A stretch of DNA of 64,000 bases from Eledone cirrhosa (lineage: Eukaryota), in the NCBI GenBank assembly GCA_964016885.1, contig OZ024742.1, positions 238,080,001 through 238,144,000 of the forward strand. The letters are read 5' to 3'. The notes below the pieces were generated by a model that saw nothing but the letters and a program-made list of their open reading frames with translations, was not told where the DNA came from and made no database searches. How positions within the stretch are numbered: the stretch's first letter is position 1; the number at the start of each line of letters is the position of its first letter. A program made the translations under genes and the position numbers. Of the stretch, positions 26,424-55,230 are shown piece after piece.

Positions 26424-26468
26424 AGTCATAGTTCTTTCGTCACACACTCTGTGACCTCTTCAGTGACT
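26424..26468 (-). ncRNA. Minimal type I hammerhead ribozyme
   Basis: agtca-CTGAAGA-g-gtcac..gtgac-GAAA-gaac-TA-tgact. Stem I agtca/tgact. Confidence 0.8.
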
Positions 26469-26752
26469 GGGGATTTCTTTCTTCGTTTCTGTGCCTTTCC
26501 TTTCTTCTATCCTACGCCATTTTGTTTGTGTGTGGGTTGCGCGCTCAGTTTGCGCATGCGCCACATCCGGGTGTCTGTGTGTGTTTGTGTTCATTTTTCT
26601 ATTTTTCTATTTATATTTTTTTTATTTGTTTGTTTATTTATTTATTTATTGTTGGTTGGTTGTTTGTTCTATGTGTGTGTGTGTTTTCATTTTGTGTGTG
26701 TTTTCAATTGTAAGTTGTTTGTTCGATGTGTGTGTGTGTTTTCATTTTGTCC

Positions 26753-27377
26753 TTAATTGTAAGTTGTGATGTTGCTGTTCCACTCATATTTTCTATTTAA
26801 TTTTGGTTTTAATTCTTTTATGCTTACTGCCTCTGTAATTTGCCTAAACATTGCGTCTTTCTTGTGTGTGGATTCTATTTTTATTTCTATGCTCTCTAAT
26901 TTACCCCTGTGTTCTATCTTAGCATGTTGGTAGAGCACAGATGATTCTTTATTATCTTGGAGGTCTCGCCAGTGTTCATTTATTCGTTCCCCTATACTAC
27001 GAGCTGTCTCACCTATGTACACTACATTTTTGTTTCTACATTGTCCTTCGGTACATCTTATGCTATATACTACATTTCTAGTTTTACAGTTAATATGGGG
27101 GCTTATTTTACAGGTTATACATTTCTTATCTATACATGAGGGTCTTTGGAACGGGTATGTCTTGCTAATATGTCTTGCTAATAAGTGTTTTTACGGAGGT
27201 ACCAGGTCTTTCTACTATCTTAATATTGAGATTATGTTTCTTTAGGGCCCTTCTAAATTTGTAGGCTAGTTCGCCTCTAGGGGTTGTATTGATGAACATT
27301 ACACTCTGGTATTTATTGCTATCATACCATGAGTTTATTCTATTGGCCTTGTTCTTAGTTCTTTCTATTCTATTCCA
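26753..27377 (-). pseudogene. PLE linker plus GIY-YIG endonuclease fragment
   Basis: KIVERPG, Cys-rich linker, RNVVYSIRC...VYIGETARSIGERINEH...RQITEAVSI...LNRKYEW. A frameshift near 27165-27180 comes from a short duplication. Confidence 0.9.
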
Positions 27378-27566
27378 AAACAACCAACCAACAATAAATA
27401 AATAAATAAACAAAAAAAATATAAATAGAAAAATAGAAAAATGAACACAAACACACACAGACACCCGGATGTGGCGCATGCGCAAACTGAGCACGCAACC
27501 CACACACAAACAAAATGGCGTAGGATAGAAGAAAGGAAAGGCACAGAAACGAAGAAAGAAATCCCC

Positions 27567-27611
27567 AGTCACTGAAGAGGTCACAGAGTGTGTGACGAAA
27601 GAACTCTGACT
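27567..27611 (+). ncRNA. Minimal type I hammerhead ribozyme (inverted copy)
   Basis: agtca-CTGAAGA-g-gtcacagagtgtgtgac-GAAA-gaac-TC-tgact. Confidence 0.8.
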
Positions 27612-27819
27612 ATATATATATAAACAACTATCTGGTTGTGGAACCAACCAACCAACCAGAAATTTATAAATTTGTAAATTTATAAATATTTAATAAATTA
27701 AATTGAAGTGAAAGCAACTGGTGCGTGTGTTTCTTATTGGCAACATGACCCTCCCAAAGTATAACAATATATATATATATATATATATATATATATATAT
27801 ATATATATATATATAGGGA

Positions 27820-29095
27820 GGCAGTAGAGACGCGACCAAAAGGAATCTATCCAGCGTAAACTTTCACAAGGTTAGCTGGAAAAGGATCCAATTTCAACAT
27901 TTCATGACAAGAGTACAAACCATATGCCGTAAGTTTCTCCCCAACAAATGGGCCAACAGACACAAAAATGTTTTTGCCCAGAGACAGGAAAATCATTATG
28001 AGAGGATGAACAAAGATCACGAACCTGTTAAATGCACATCAGAAGAACAAGATGGAACCCCATTTGAAACAGGCTCTGATTGAAATTGAAACTGCATTCA
28101 ATCTTTCCCATTAAAAGGAGAGGGCAGAGAGAGAAGCCAGGGCCATAGAAAATATAAAAACAAAAGAGACTGCTTCGGTACACTTTTCCATATAAATGTC
28201 TTCCTGGCCGAGGATCCTCAAGAGATAAATAGAGAAACTGAATGAACGGTACAAAAGGGTTTTTACACCCACAATGATGCACATGTAAATAACAAAGCCA
28301 GCGGAATTCGTTGATGGCACAGCACTACACGGAGAAATGGCGACCAACAATCACATAGATATAAAGGATGAAGATGTTATATCAGCCATAGAAGAAATGA
28401 GACCAAATTCAGCTCCTGGACCTGATGGATTACCAGCAACCCTCCTAAAAATATGCAAGCGTACCTTAGCAAGAACTTCTGAAGATCCTCTTCAGAAGTT
28501 CTCTGGCTAGCGCAGAGAGCTAAAAAAAGGCGTAATATCCCCTATCCATAAAGGAGGAAGCACAGCAGAGGCGAAAAACTACAGGCCGGTCTCCTTGAAT
28601 TCCCATATCATTAAAGTCATGGAAGGAATCATCAGAAAGAAATTGACCTCCTAACTAATACCAAGCATGCCTTTCGTCCGGAAAAAGCTGCCTTACACAG
28701 CTTTTACAGCACTACAACTGGATAGTGAAACAGCTGCTGGACCACTCTAATGTTGATGTGATATATCTTGACTTTACGAAAGCCTTCGACAAGGTCGACC
28801 ATGCAATGATATGTCAAAAACTAAACAGATTCGGCATAATTAGAAATTTAGGTGAGTTATTTCATGACTTCTTAAAAGACAGAAGCCAGACTGTTGAAGC
28901 CAGTGGGGCTCTCTCAAAGGAAACAGCAATAACAAGTGGGATGCTCCAGGGGACTGTCTTGGGACCACTAATTTTTTAGTGGCTCTTTCAGACATGTCAT
29001 CTGTAGTACATACAACAACCCTCATTAGCTATGCTGATGACACAAATATAGCACAGGTAATCAAGAATCCGGCCGATGATACTCTTTTACAAGAT
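27820..29095 (+). pseudogene. CR1-group LINE reverse transcriptase remnant
   Basis: SAPGPDGLPA, PIHKGG..NYRPVSL, DVIYLDFTKAFDKVDH, SGMLQGTVLGPLIF, SYADDT. Has stops and frameshifts and is truncated shortly after YADD. Confidence 0.9.
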
Positions 29096-29097
29096 CT

Positions 29098-29932
29098 TTT
29101 AAATTACCACTAAACCTGGTCACAAATGACGGTCCAATTCGTAACATAAGCAAAAGCTCAGGTTCATCAGAAGTGTTGCACCAATACTACCTGATCATTT
29201 GGGATGAATGCACCATGTCACATAGAGGTGCGATGCAAGCTCTTGATAAGACCTTAAATGACATAAGAGGTAACAAAATATCTATAATAGGAGTTACATT
29301 AGTTTTATCAGGAGACTTCAGATAGAGATTACCAGTCATTCTGAGAGAAACAAGAGCTGATGAAATAAAAGCATGCGTTAAGTCTTCGCGGCTATAGAAT
29401 AAAGTAAAAAATTTCTCCTGAAGGGTAGAGTTCCAATAATGGTTCCATGAAATTTAGACCCTCCTAAATTATGCAATGGGACAAGATTGATTGTGAAAAC
29501 ATTATCATCTAATATGATTGAAGCTACTATCATCAATAAAACTGAAGGTCAGACTTTGACATTTACTATCTTGTACTTAAGGGATCTTTGCTTTTCCCAT
29601 GGTCAAGTTTACGTTGGTCGCTCCAGGTGGGGTGTTTACAAGACTTATTTGTCTATGCTCCAAACCAAAGAATGTTGTTAACCCAGAAGCTCTTATGTAA
29701 TGTGCTTCAACATATGTGGTCAAATTTATCTCCCCCATAACCGAGATAAATTTTGTATTTTCAAATTGTATTAATTTTTGTATCATGAATTCAGAATTGA
29801 TTTCATCATGTACATCAATTGAAGATTAAATGGAATTTAGAATAACAAATTTCCATACAACTTGTTTTGCTTTCTTCTTCTAATATATAAGGAACACTTT
29901 TATTCCCGGGCAACGCCTGGTGCCTCTCTTAG
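29098..29932 (+). mobile_element. Helitron remnant: PIF1-family helicase C-terminal half and 3' end
   Basis: FKLPLNL...LIIWDECTM...GDFR*.LPV, LCNGTRL, NK.EGQT, CFSHGQVYVG.SR. Decayed terminal hairpin cccgggcaacgcctgg followed by cttag at ~29905-29932. Confidence 0.88.
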
Positions 29933-53400: not shown

Positions 53401-53677
53401 AATATATATATATATATATATATATATATATATATATATATTAAAATAACAGATTAAAGTTTAAGCAAAGAATTGCTGCTTTCACCCTTAACGGGATCTT
53501 CTGAAAGTAAAAAAATCAATCTGTGAACGCAGAAGTAAATATTTTGAAAAACGTTACACACTATATATATATGTATACACACTACACACACACACACACA
53601 CACACACACACACACACACACAGCTACGTCATAATGTCGTAATGCAGACAGGCAGGCATACAGACAGATATTATAAG

Positions 53678-53863
53678 GGCAGTGGATTAGCAGTATCGGT
53701 AGAGGGTCGGACGCCATGCTTTCCAGCATAGTTACGTCCCTTTACGATCTGATTTCAAATCCCGCCGAGGTTGACTTTGCCTTTCATCCTTACGGGGTCG
53801 ATAAAATAAAGTACCAGTAATGCACTGGGTAATTGCTGGCCTTGTGCCTAAAGTAGAAACAAT
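53678..53863 (+). mobile_element. Full-length SINE family A with TSD
   Basis: Intact head and core. Direct repeat attataagggc at 53670-53680 and 53862-53872. Confidence 0.92.
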
Positions 53864-53911
53864 TATAAGGGCGCAACGTTATATCTATGTATCTATCTAA
53901 AAAGAGAACGA

Positions 53912-54124
53912 CTAGGAGTTATAGAGAGAGATCGTTAATCGCCTAATGCAGTCCCTAGGGCATTGAAAATTTGAAATCTTTTTTGGCTCAAAACACTCAG
54001 AGGACCATAAGTATTACATGTGTAAAGTTTGAAAACAATCGGTTGGGTGGTTCTCAAGTTTTAGTGATCGGACAGACAGACAAACAGACAGACAGAGAGA
54101 CATTCTCTGTTTTAGATATATAGA
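53912..54124 (-). mobile_element. Short Helitron-like element
   Basis: Minus strand starts A|TCTATATATC, has a (CTGT)n microsatellite near the 5' end, and ends CTAG|T at 53912. The terminal hairpin is weak. Confidence 0.55.
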
Positions 54125-54544
54125 TTATACCATTGGTATACTAGTGGATTATACCAGTAATAATAGTGGATCTAAATGAGGTAAAATAATAACATAAAAA
54201 ATAAATAAATAAAACTAAAAATAATAACAATTGCAATGATGTTGATAATGTGTTAATGGTACGTTCAATATATAAGTATACACAGAGGTGCGCTCATATA
54301 ACATACACACTTACACAGACATATATACATGGATATACGGACGGACACACTCATATATATATACATACACACACATATAGATACATACAATCTTATGTGT
54401 ACCTAAATATTCAGACATATATAGTACATACACATATAATTTACCATTTGTAATAGTACATTTAATGTCACTAATATTACATCTATTGTATTTTATATAT
54501 ATTTATTTAATGTTTGATATATAATGAAGGTAACGGTAGTAGTA

Positions 54545-54705
54545 TTGGCAGTATCGGTAGAGGGTGGGACGCCATGCTTTCCAGCATAGTTACGTCCCTT
54601 TACGGTCCGAGGTTGACTTTGCCTTTCATCCTTACGGGGTCGATAAAATAAAGTACCAGTAATGCACTGGGTAATTGCTAGCCTTGTGCCTAAAGTAGAA
54701 ACAAT
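54545..54705 (+). mobile_element. SINE family A
   Basis: Nearly identical to the 53678 copy apart from a deletion of the B-box segment. Confidence 0.9.
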
Positions 54706-55179
54706 TATCTTTAGCATCACCATCACCGTCTTCATTATTGGAAATGGTGTTATTGTTGTTGTTGTCGTGGTAGTTGTTGTTGTTGTTGTTGTCATGGTAG
54801 TTGTTGTTGGCGTTGACAATAAGAGCGGTGATACCGCCATCATCAAAGCAAGCAGCACATTCTTGGCTCTCCTGTCCTCTTCGCTAGATTTACTGGTGCC
54901 AGTGTTCGGCGGTATGAATACAAAGTGTTGCTCTGACTAACGGCAAAGTAGATATGATAGCGAGAACTACAGATTACGGATGAAATAATAGACCACAAGC
55001 TGAGATGTAACAGTAAATCTGTCAACAATTAAGTATAGGAACTTTACCAAGAACCTACAAACTCAACAAATGAGAAGGCTGATACATCTACTACTGGAAC
55101 TTAATAAGAAAAGAGTTTCATATGTCCGCTGGCATCACAGCAGGACAAATCCCGATGATTGCATAACTGACTATGATTA

Positions 55180-55230
55180 GCATCTGATGAAGTCATATAC
55201 ATAACCATGTAACAGAAATATGTATCATGC
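55180..55230 (+). ncRNA. Minimal type I hammerhead ribozyme (irregular stem II)
   Basis: gcat-CTGATGA-agtcata-tacat-aacc-atgta-aca-GAAA-tatgta-TC-atgc, followed immediately by AATAAA. Confidence 0.6.

What the first reader, a model, noticed from the sequence alone, without database searches (positions are those of the whole stretch)
26424..55230. Eight intact-core minimal hammerhead ribozymes of about five sequence types in 29 kb
Seen: type I folds at 26424(-), 27567(+), 33166(+), 34731(-), 35047(-), 37219(+), 52028(-) and 55180(+). All have stem I-CUGANGA-stem II-GAAA-tiny stem III-UH-stem I. The stems differ in sequence between types but keep pairing. Established: PLE pseudo-LTRs carry minimal hammerheads whose short palindromic stem III (here TACGTA, CTAG, TATATA) favours cleavage as dimers. 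Inference: this density means any long pre-mRNA crossing the region carries several potential self-cleavage sites on each strand.
Basis: partly seen in the sequence, partly recalled or inferred. Interest (0 to 1): 0.75.

Follow-up and report, generated by a model that had tools for sequence, protein, structure and literature searches.

The report
Penelope hammerheads, with ADAR-scarred sister copies
The eight hammerhead (self-cutting RNA) motifs are real but ordinary parts of six jumping-gene insertions of kinds common across this genome and likely cut little on their own, while two sister copies elsewhere carry dense one-way A-to-G changes shared by both mirror-image arms, likely left by RNA editing before the RNA was copied into inherited DNA.

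Summary
All eight type I hammerhead folds are present (11 in the window versus 0.05 by chance). They belong to six insertions, not eight. Two pairs are the inverted pseudo-LTR arms of single 5'-truncated Penelope-like elements (one Neptune/Nematis-type, one Hydra-type). One site is a solo unit of a young ~480-nt retrozyme-like repeat. The density is about twice a genome sample's 82 per Mb (roughly 250,000 genome-wide), so this window is not special. The host pre-mRNA cleavage idea is weak: no gene was found crossing the region, no dimer partner lies in cis, and four sites would be buried in long hairpins. Cleavage is untested. Two other genomic copies of the window's family A are A-to-G hypermutated on the sense strand (107 of 109 changes in one), with identical patterns in both inverted arms and a destroyed hammerhead core. 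This points to ADAR-edited sense RNA, copied twice from one molecule without ribozyme cleavage. I found no paper reporting this. The scan noted the same phenomenon earlier on other DNA in this and other genomes.

The parts
26210..27770 (-). Element A: 5'-truncated Neptune/Nematis-type Penelope-like element. 3' copy with a ~55-nt tail (27380 to 26210) plus an inverted 393-nt pseudo-LTR arm (27378-27770), between (TA)n tracts
   Evidence: Inverted arms 97%; sequence; young family with at least 1291 candidate copies, the top 40 regions 97-100% identical; full ORF in L175
26756..27190 (-). C-terminal GIY-YIG endonuclease of element A, with CX4CxxC linker and two cysteines between GIY and YIG
   Evidence: Pfam PF01541, E 2.3e-5, above cutoff; translation
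26424..26468 (-). Type I minimal hammerhead, family A, sense copy; extra G before G10.1-C11.1; stem III not palindromic; predicted cut after 26429
   Evidence: core intact in 70 of 71 unedited family arms that cover it
27567..27611 (+). Same hammerhead in the inverted 5' arm of element A; predicted cut after 27606
33075..33482 (+). Solo unit of a young ~480-nt non-coding repeat (family C, retrozyme-like) in (TA)n, with an octamer and a TATA-like motif upstream of its hammerhead
   Evidence: At least 1297 candidates, 15 of the 46 listed matches (window included) 100% identical over 236 nt; tandem and inverted arrays elsewhere; octamer
33165..33207 (+). Type I hammerhead, family C; U.U at the base of stem II; palindromic 6-nt stem III; predicted cut after 33201
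34731..34786 (-). Type I hammerhead, family D, in a solo pseudo-LTR remnant
   Evidence: at least 172 candidates; a Hydra-type endonuclease lies about 1.1 kb upstream on the same strand in 4 of 24 other loci
34991..37342 (+). Element B: 5'-truncated Hydra-type Penelope-like element; inverted arm 34991-35254, endonuclease remnant 35395-36084, 3' pseudo-LTR 37071-37342
   Evidence: Arms 93-95%; CxCX5C linker (first Cys lost here, present in L035), CxxC and CxH, no CCHH; no Pfam hit; at least 2275 candidates
35046..35106 (-). Type I hammerhead in the inverted arm of element B; A-U at the base of stem II; predicted cut after 35054
37218..37278 (+). Type I hammerhead in the 3' pseudo-LTR of element B; predicted cut after 37270
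52027..52091 (-). Type I hammerhead of a B-related subfamily, downstream of an endonuclease remnant at 53379-53215(-)
   Evidence: tblastn 52% identity to element B endonuclease, E 1e-11
55180..55230 (+). Type I hammerhead, family F; old, degraded copy (A.A at the base of stem II, 5-nt deletion in stem I relative to relatives)
   Evidence: relatives 72-84% identical, at least 806 candidates; link to an endonuclease weak
33900..33942 (-).
48655..48701 (-). Additional type I hammerhead, octamer upstream (retrozyme-like)
58274..58318 (-). Additional type I hammerhead with G10.1-C11.1, in a 469-nt-spaced repeat with an inverted arm, octamer upstream

Best explanation
The eight hammerhead folds lie in six insertions of Penelope-like retroelements and a related non-coding repeat, and they likely serve to process each element's own multimeric RNA (as dimers or with the element's protein) rather than to cut host transcripts. 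Shown: the folds, their position behind GIY-YIG ORF ends or in tandem units, covariation, genome-wide abundance, and the head-to-head arm architecture with two fixed 3' ends. Inferred: the genomic copies here were made from RNA that was not cut at the ribozyme, because they run through the cut site. The inverted arm likely arises when the two ends of a DNA break each prime reverse transcription on the same sense RNA. In a read-through transcript the paired arms would form long double-stranded RNA, likely an ADAR substrate rather than a ribozyme. Two A-to-G hypermutated sister copies of family A likely record that: edited sense RNA, ribozyme core destroyed, still inserted, both arms from one molecule.
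For: Folds far above chance. GIY-YIG upstream of sense hammerheads. Full family A ORF of about 1,270 codons with an RT match (RVT_1, E 7e-5, below cutoff) and a C-terminal endonuclease. Covariation in 18 B-group sequences: 22 cells with double changes, 0 of 500 shuffles. Pairing at positions the scan did not require across 28 types: stem I bp 5, 0.64 vs 0.29 shuffled; 15.3-16.3, 0.89 vs 0.33. 82 hits per Mb in 106 evenly spaced 10-kb stretches. Family A: 89 arms, 25 head-to-head pairs, 3' ends at two sites about 60 nt apart in 44 and 29 arms, matching the published tail and two RT start sites (PMC11167929). L154: 107 of 109 substitutions A-to-G on the sense strand; L155: 37 of 45. Young copies have A at all these sites (G 0.13-0.15%); arms share 106 of 106 and 36 of 36 changes. 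The two loci share only 16 of 34/33 (p 0.096). G is enriched 3' of changed As (OR 2.3, p 0.002). Core destroyed in 4 of 4 edited arms, intact in 70 of 71 others.
Against: No cleavage was measured and no RNA ends or edited RNA reads were available. Only 2 of 28 type representatives have G-C at 10.1-11.1 (2 more in the bulged register), so many motifs may be weak or work differently. The full family A ORF had no Pfam hit as a whole. Family F's link to an endonuclease is weak. Depletion of G 5' of edited As is only modest (OR 0.56, p 0.059), weaker than the strong depletion described for ADAR (PMC5625713), and the 3' G bias is absent in L155 alone. That paper reports a reduced downstream-G preference in invertebrates, so the 3' G enrichment fits vertebrate-type ADAR better than the invertebrate cluster. 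Only two edited loci were found, none in 1.06 Mb of evenly spaced sample. The covariation sets were chosen by a descriptor and are related by descent.
Confidence: 0.8

Rival explanations
1. The hammerheads are active cut sites in long host transcripts crossing the region and shape RNA fate.
For: Cores intact on both strands; 10 motifs in 29 kb is in the upper tail of the genome sample (bootstrap P 0.006 for 10, 0.028 for 8 in 30 kb, interval chosen after the fact); three extra motifs have longer stems III or a G-C base pair and might act as monomers; a Thr-rich 51-nt repeat ORF at 4869-14910 could belong to a gene whose introns extend here.
Against: Only mobile-element domains among 162 ORFs scanned; no cis dimer partner within 17 kb; four sites in self-pairing arms; published monomers inactive (PMC4209133, PMC11167929); no RNA evidence.
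Confidence: 0.08
2. The motifs are catalytically dead or near-dead passengers, kept only because they are copied along with the pseudo-LTR, perhaps as a structural signal for the element's protein.
For: Non-canonical base of stem II in most types; family A stem III gives no stable homoduplex; copies with a destroyed core were inserted; catalytic mutants insert normally in vitro (PMC11167929); Naiads thrive without canonical hammerheads (PMC8557442).
Against: The 13 core bases and three stems persist across 28 sequence types whose stems covary, which is expected under selection for catalysis; a U.U at the base of helix II occurs in an axolotl retrozyme hammerhead family (PMC7229834).
Confidence: 0.15
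3. The A-to-G hypermutated sister copies come from something other than ADAR (reverse-transcriptase error under nucleotide imbalance, an error-prone DNA polymerase), or their arms match because of DNA-level duplication after insertion.
For: 5' neighbour bias favours A/U over G/C (OR 0.45 for G/C), which also fits a WA-type polymerase signature (recalled); 5' G depletion modest; L154 is a perfect fold-back with no arm differences.
Against: 28-34% of As changed within the tracts with almost no other change and on one strand only; the arms end at the two different element-specific 3' sites, only one with the tail, and have different flanks, which a simple DNA duplication or assembly fold-back would not give; unedited pairs are not homogenised (11 shared versus 56 arm-specific private changes).
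Confidence: 0.15

Closest known systems
Minimal type I hammerheads of Penelope-like element pseudo-LTRs (Cervera and De la Pena 2014, PMC4209133; parts 1-2 of 4 read)
   Same: Type I fold, tiny palindromic stem III, location in pseudo-LTRs, many families per genome, mostly single motifs from truncated copies, and pairs on opposite strands a short distance apart; family A has the extra base before G10.1-C11.1.
   Different: G10.1-C11.1 is the exception here (2 of 28 type representatives, 2 more in the bulged register); stem III is often 8-10 nt; about 82 per Mb against about 9,000 per genome in Xenopus tropicalis (descriptors differ).
Neptune/Nematis and Hydra clades of C-terminal-endonuclease PLEs (Craig et al. 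2021, PMC8557442; passages and one supplement search)
   Same: Element A has the CX2-5CxxC linker, CCHH-type cysteines and (TA)n targets; element B has CxCX5C, CxxC, CxH and no CCHH; inverted 5'-truncated copy and tail.
   Different: Tail about 55-60 nt rather than 30-40; no phylogeny was run, so Neptune versus Nematis is open.
Metazoan non-LTR retrozymes (Cervera and De la Pena 2020, PMC7229834, passages; Li et al. 2026, 10.64898/2026.07.22.740005, part 1 of 5)
   Same: Family C is a non-coding unit with one type I hammerhead, in tandem arrays and as solo copies; a U.U at the base of helix II is described for axolotl HHR_Amex2.
   Different: Unit about 480 nt (150-400 nt recalled for most; 220-390 in the passages read), with inverted arrays and (TA)n targets; circular RNA not shown here.
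APOBEC DNA editing of LTR retrotransposons fixed in vertebrate genomes (PMC4866542, passages) and A-to-G hypermutated avian retroviral DNA (recalled; also named in earlier scan notes)
   Same: Dense one-way, strand-specific changes fixed in a reverse-transcribed copy, polarised against family members.
   Different: A-to-G on the sense strand of a Penelope element in an invertebrate germline; that screen found other mismatch clusters negligible and invertebrate LTRs at noise level.

Membership tests
Type I hammerhead ribozyme | Core CUGANGA, GAAA, UH in order | tested here: met
   8 of 8 sites
Type I hammerhead ribozyme | Three stems with stem I open, supported by covariation | tested here: met
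   predicted stem I weak at 55180 and 33165
Type I hammerhead ribozyme | G10.1-C11.1 pair | tested here: not met
   Present at 3 of 8 sites; A-U, U.U or A.A at the other 5. A U.U variant is published (PMC7229834), so this marks variants rather than excluding them
Type I hammerhead ribozyme | Site-specific self-cleavage | not testable with these tools
   Only contigs were offered, which cannot show ends
PLE minimal hammerhead | Short palindromic stem III allowing dimers | tested here: inconclusive
   Perfect in 5 of 8, near in 1, absent in 2; duplex energies -6.5 to +1.4 kcal/mol
EN+ Penelope-like element (element A) | Single ORF with RT and C-terminal GIY-YIG endonuclease | tested here: met
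   L175 ORF: RVT_1 E 7e-5 (below cutoff), GIY-YIG E 2.3e-5; whole ORF no hit
EN+ Penelope-like element (element A) | Pseudo-LTR tandem, inverted 5'-truncated copy, optional tail | tested here: met
Neptune/Nematis clades (element A) | CX2-5CxxC linker and cysteines inside GIY-YIG | tested here: met
   Translation, against the description in PMC8557442
Neptune/Nematis clades (element A) | Placement in RT phylogeny | not tested
   No reference sequences in hand
Hydra clade (elements B, 52027, D) | CxCX5C linker, no CCHH, CxxC and CxH motifs | tested here: met
   Element B and L035, L094, L097; the window copy has lost the first Cys; only a C-terminal remnant for 52027
Hydra clade (elements B, 52027, D) | RT with RWK and DKT motifs | not tested
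   No full-length copy fetched
Non-LTR retrozyme (family C) | Non-coding tandem unit with one type I hammerhead per unit | tested here: met
   the window copy itself is a solo unit
Non-LTR retrozyme (family C) | Circular RNA intermediate | not testable with these tools
   No suitable RNA data
ADAR hyper-editing signature (L154, L155) | Clustered one-way A-to-G on one strand, polarised by relatives | tested here: met
ADAR hyper-editing signature (L154, L155) | Strong depletion of G upstream of edited A | tested here: inconclusive
   16 of 80 versus 128 of 415, OR 0.56, p 0.059

The most novel reading that the evidence does not exclude
Germline RNA of this window's Penelope family is hyper-edited by ADAR and written back into the genome. 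The edit pattern is a molecular barcode showing that both head-to-head arms of an insertion are copied from one uncut, sense-strand RNA. That contradicts the antisense self-priming proposal for these insertions and shows in vivo that the hammerhead need not be intact on the template. It happens in a genome with about 250,000 intact-core hammerheads, most types lacking the G10.1-C11.1 pair.
Probability: 0.72. Interest if true: 0.72.

Novelty: new member of a known kind. Interest (0 to 1): 0.5.

Why it matters
The cluster itself is ordinary: Penelope pseudo-LTR hammerheads are known and this genome is full of them. Three things are worth keeping. First, about 82 intact-core motifs per Mb implies a tolerated load of some 250,000, which makes their depletion from sense introns a direct test of whether they cut in vivo. 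Second, most types depart from the published consensus at the base of stem II. Third, the A-to-G hypermutated copies of family A bear on open questions about Penelope elements: which strand is the template, how the inverted arm arises, and whether ribozyme cleavage is needed. They would also be a route by which RNA edits become inherited DNA.

Tried and rejected
Rfam scan: no help; the top hits were microsatellite hairpins matching miRNA models. A strict descriptor missed 4 of 8 sites and was relaxed. RNA evidence: one RNA run with a 0.10 word share and one 230-nt contig; the other runs were contigs of unrecorded kind; nothing on expression, ends or editing can be drawn. Search for a host gene: 14 + 148 ORFs gave only RVT_1, Exo_endo_phos, zf-RVT, GIY-YIG and PIF1; short exons would be missed, so a gene is not excluded. 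Search for more hypermutated copies: all-against-all of 1.75 Mb found only the two loci; a search with the L154 pattern found no descendant, next best 88-89%, so an edited master element is rejected for L154. The share 2 of about 51 family A loci is not a rate: one search skipped common words and returned mostly atypical copies; against at least 1291 candidates it is a lower bound. The arm-pairing step failed for lack of coordinates and was redone. Shared private changes in unedited arm pairs (11 shared, 56 arm-specific) are too few to test the one-template idea. L175 and L177 were not used to argue which arm is longer because their short arm continues into a tandem. Lunse et al. 2017 on small PLE hammerhead variants is not held; I know it only through PMC6765202, so the stem II variants may be described there. 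Supplements of PMC4209133 and PMC4866542 were not read and may bear on the same claims.

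
Full report
Observation. A descriptor for type I hammerheads (CUGANGA, a stem II helix of at least 3 bp, GAAA, pairs 15.1-16.1 and 15.2-16.2, UH, stem I of at least 4 bp) found all eight sites and three more (33900-, 48655-, 58274-). That is 11 in 64 kb against a mean of 0.047 in 300 shuffles. A stricter version that required pairing at the very base of stem II found 4 of the 8, because only 26424, 27567 and 34731 have G10.1-C11.1. Rfam listed none of the eight. Stem III is a perfect palindrome at five sites, nearly so at 55180, and not at the two family A sites.

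What carries them. 26424 and 27567 are the two arms of a 393-nt inverted repeat, and 35046 and 37218 the arms of a 259-nt one. Each pair encloses the 3' end of an ORF with a GIY-YIG endonuclease: a Pfam hit for element A, and the CxCX5C, CxxC and CxH motifs without CCHH for element B, as described for the Hydra clade (PMC8557442 passages). This is the known layout of a 5'-truncated Penelope-like element with an inverted copy at its 5' end (PMC8557442; PMC3846280 passages). Family A is young: at least 1291 candidates, the best 40 regions at 97-100%, with a full ORF of about 1,270 codons in L175 holding RT and endonuclease (the whole ORF had no Pfam hit). 52027 lies downstream of another endonuclease remnant. 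Family D has a Hydra-type endonuclease about 1.1 kb upstream on the same strand in 4 of 24 other loci; family F's link is weak. 33165 is a solo unit of a ~480-nt non-coding repeat with many identical copies and tandem arrays and an octamer upstream, like a non-LTR retrozyme (PMC7229834 passages; 10.64898/2026.07.22.740005 part 1 of 5). Eight sites are therefore six insertions.

Covariation. Within young families there is almost no variation. Across 18 B-group sequences, 94% of cells pair and 22 show changes on both sides, reached by 0 of 500 shuffles and by no slid control; these sequences are related and were chosen by the descriptor. Across 82 distinct motifs in 28 crude types, positions the scan did not require pair far above shuffled values (stem I bp 5: 0.64 vs 0.29; 15.3-16.3: 0.89 vs 0.33). 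Positions 10.2-11.2 and 10.3-11.3 also pair (0.75, 0.86), though the descriptor favours this. Position 10.1-11.1 does not (0.32 vs 0.38), with G-C in 2 of 28 representatives. The published consensus has a highly conserved G-C there (PMC4209133, parts 1-2 of 4); a U.U variant is known in axolotl. Lunse et al. 2017 could not be read and may cover such variants.

Density. The same scan on 106 stretches of 10 kb taken at round coordinates on the large contigs (1,059,600 bases) gave 87 hits, 82 per Mb, 95% interval 58-108, or 175,000-322,000 in the 3.0-Gb genome. Eleven in 64 kb has a bootstrap P of 0.068; eight in 30 kb has 0.028 and ten 0.006, for an interval picked after the fact and with inverted pairs counted twice. 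The four flanking 10-kb stretches hold 0, 1, 1 and 0. The window is modestly rich, not exceptional. A paper search for octopus with hammerhead ribozyme returned no report of this (listing only); the cephalopod-type label is recalled and appears in an earlier scan note.

The pre-mRNA inference. No host domain was found among 162 ORFs; short exons would escape this. No RNA data could show ends. The nearest same-strand partners with fully complementary stem III are 17.3 and 18.0 kb apart. In a read-through of element A the arms are predicted to pair over the hammerhead. Published minimal PLE hammerheads are inactive as monomers and weak as dimers, or cleave only with the element's protein, and catalytic mutants still insert (PMC11167929, passages and section 3 part 2). 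Efficient cutting of host RNA here is unlikely, though untested.

Hypermutated sister copies. In the family A alignment two loci stood out. L154 (C22, 15.916 Mb) differs from the young copy L175 by 109 substitutions, 107 of them A-to-G on the sense strand; L155 (C3, 54.53 Mb) by 45, 37 of them A-to-G. Young copies have A at every such site. 28% and 34% of As within the tracts are changed. Both loci are head-to-head pairs, and the arms share 106 of 106 and 36 of 36 changes, while the two loci overlap no more than chance allows (16 of 34 and 33 among 89 As, p 0.096). The L154 pattern has no descendant among the 44 matches listed. Neighbour bias is partly ADAR-like: 3' G enriched (OR 2.3, p 0.002), 5' G only modestly depleted (OR 0.56, p 0.059). 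PMC5625713 (passages) describes a strong 5' G depletion, a weaker 3' G preference in invertebrates, and very high hyper-editing in octopus RNA. The hammerhead core is destroyed in 4 of 4 edited arms and intact in 70 of 71 others. No further case appeared in 1.75 Mb all-against-all, so such copies are rare.

Mechanism. Shown: 89 family A arms end mostly at two 3' sites about 60 nt apart (44 and 29 arms), and in 17 of 25 head-to-head pairs one arm has each end. In L176 and L179 the untailed arm reaches 30 and 71 nt further 5' than the tailed arm. Established: a Penelope protein cuts and extends both DNA strands from two internal start sites that define the tail. Inferred: both ends of the break prime on one sense RNA, the two truncated cDNAs join head to head, and the RNA was uncut at the hammerhead. 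A sense-strand A-to-G pattern argues against the antisense-template self-priming proposed in PMC3846280 for these two insertions. Copying of the first cDNA by snap-back is not excluded for L154, which is a perfect fold-back.

Novelty. The hammerheads are new members of a known kind. For ADAR-type changes fixed in genomic retrotransposon copies, six paper searches gave no report (listings and abstract starts only). A 2016 review calls a role of ADAR editing in Alu evolution undetermined (PMC4982230 passages), and a 123-genome screen found non-G-to-A clusters negligible in LTR elements (PMC4866542 passages). Subscription journals are not covered. I reached this reading before consulting the scan's notes, which report the same phenomenon on other DNA of this and other genomes; none lies near this window. 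Those notes are not counted as evidence.

Verdict. Observation confirmed; interpretation partly supported. The cluster is ordinary for this genome. Interest 0.5 rests mainly on the edited sister copies and the genome-wide load.

Noticed in passing
L154:3149-5252 (G000 C22, 15.915-15.917 Mb) and L155:5402-6165 (G000 C3, 54.53 Mb): Two head-to-head family A insertions with dense sense-strand A-to-G changes, identical in both arms, hammerhead core destroyed.
   Followed up: yes
106 stretches of G000 (L161-L173, L180-L272): 87 intact-core type I hammerheads in 1.06 Mb, 28 crude types, extrapolating to about 250,000; a C.C or C.U mismatch at the fourth position of stem II in 50 of 82 distinct motifs.
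   Followed up: partly
window 33075-33482, 57982-58923, 48655-48810: Three different non-coding hammerhead units each have an octamer about 80-90 nt upstream of the core and a TATA-like motif, resembling an snRNA-type promoter (newt satellite 2 parallel is recalled).
   Followed up: partly
window 15279-15645: Near-perfect 182-bp fold-back of a B-related pseudo-LTR; both arms carry the same core-breaking change (G5 to U), again suggesting a single template.
   Followed up: no
window 49844-50210: Near-perfect 183-bp fold-back with a 1-nt loop and no hammerhead found; few relatives among the loci held.
   Followed up: no
window 3023-14910: A 51-nt unit repeated about 195 times (4867-14737) with several open frames over 1,000 codons, Thr-rich on the + strand; mucin-like exon or minisatellite, no Pfam hit for the first 1,000 codons.
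   Followed up: no
window 19470-22887 (-), 28659-28976 (+), 29080-29322 (+), 37469-38206 (-): Remnants of other mobile elements: a frameshifted LINE with AP-endonuclease, an RT fragment, a PIF1 helicase fragment (possibly Helitron, recalled) and a zf-RVT-bearing 3' end.
   Followed up: no
window 33664-33850, 49009-49087, 50570-51319, 53669-53866, 54531-54713, 62939-63231: Many copies of one short interspersed repeat, recalled as typical of octopus genomes.
   Followed up: no
L175:4587-8429: The family A ORF has a long Asn/His/Thr-rich low-complexity insert before the RT, reminiscent of the N-rich inserts described in rotifer Penelopes (PMC3846280).
   Followed up: no
window 63660-64000 (+): Another Hydra-type endonuclease remnant near the window end.
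   Followed up: no
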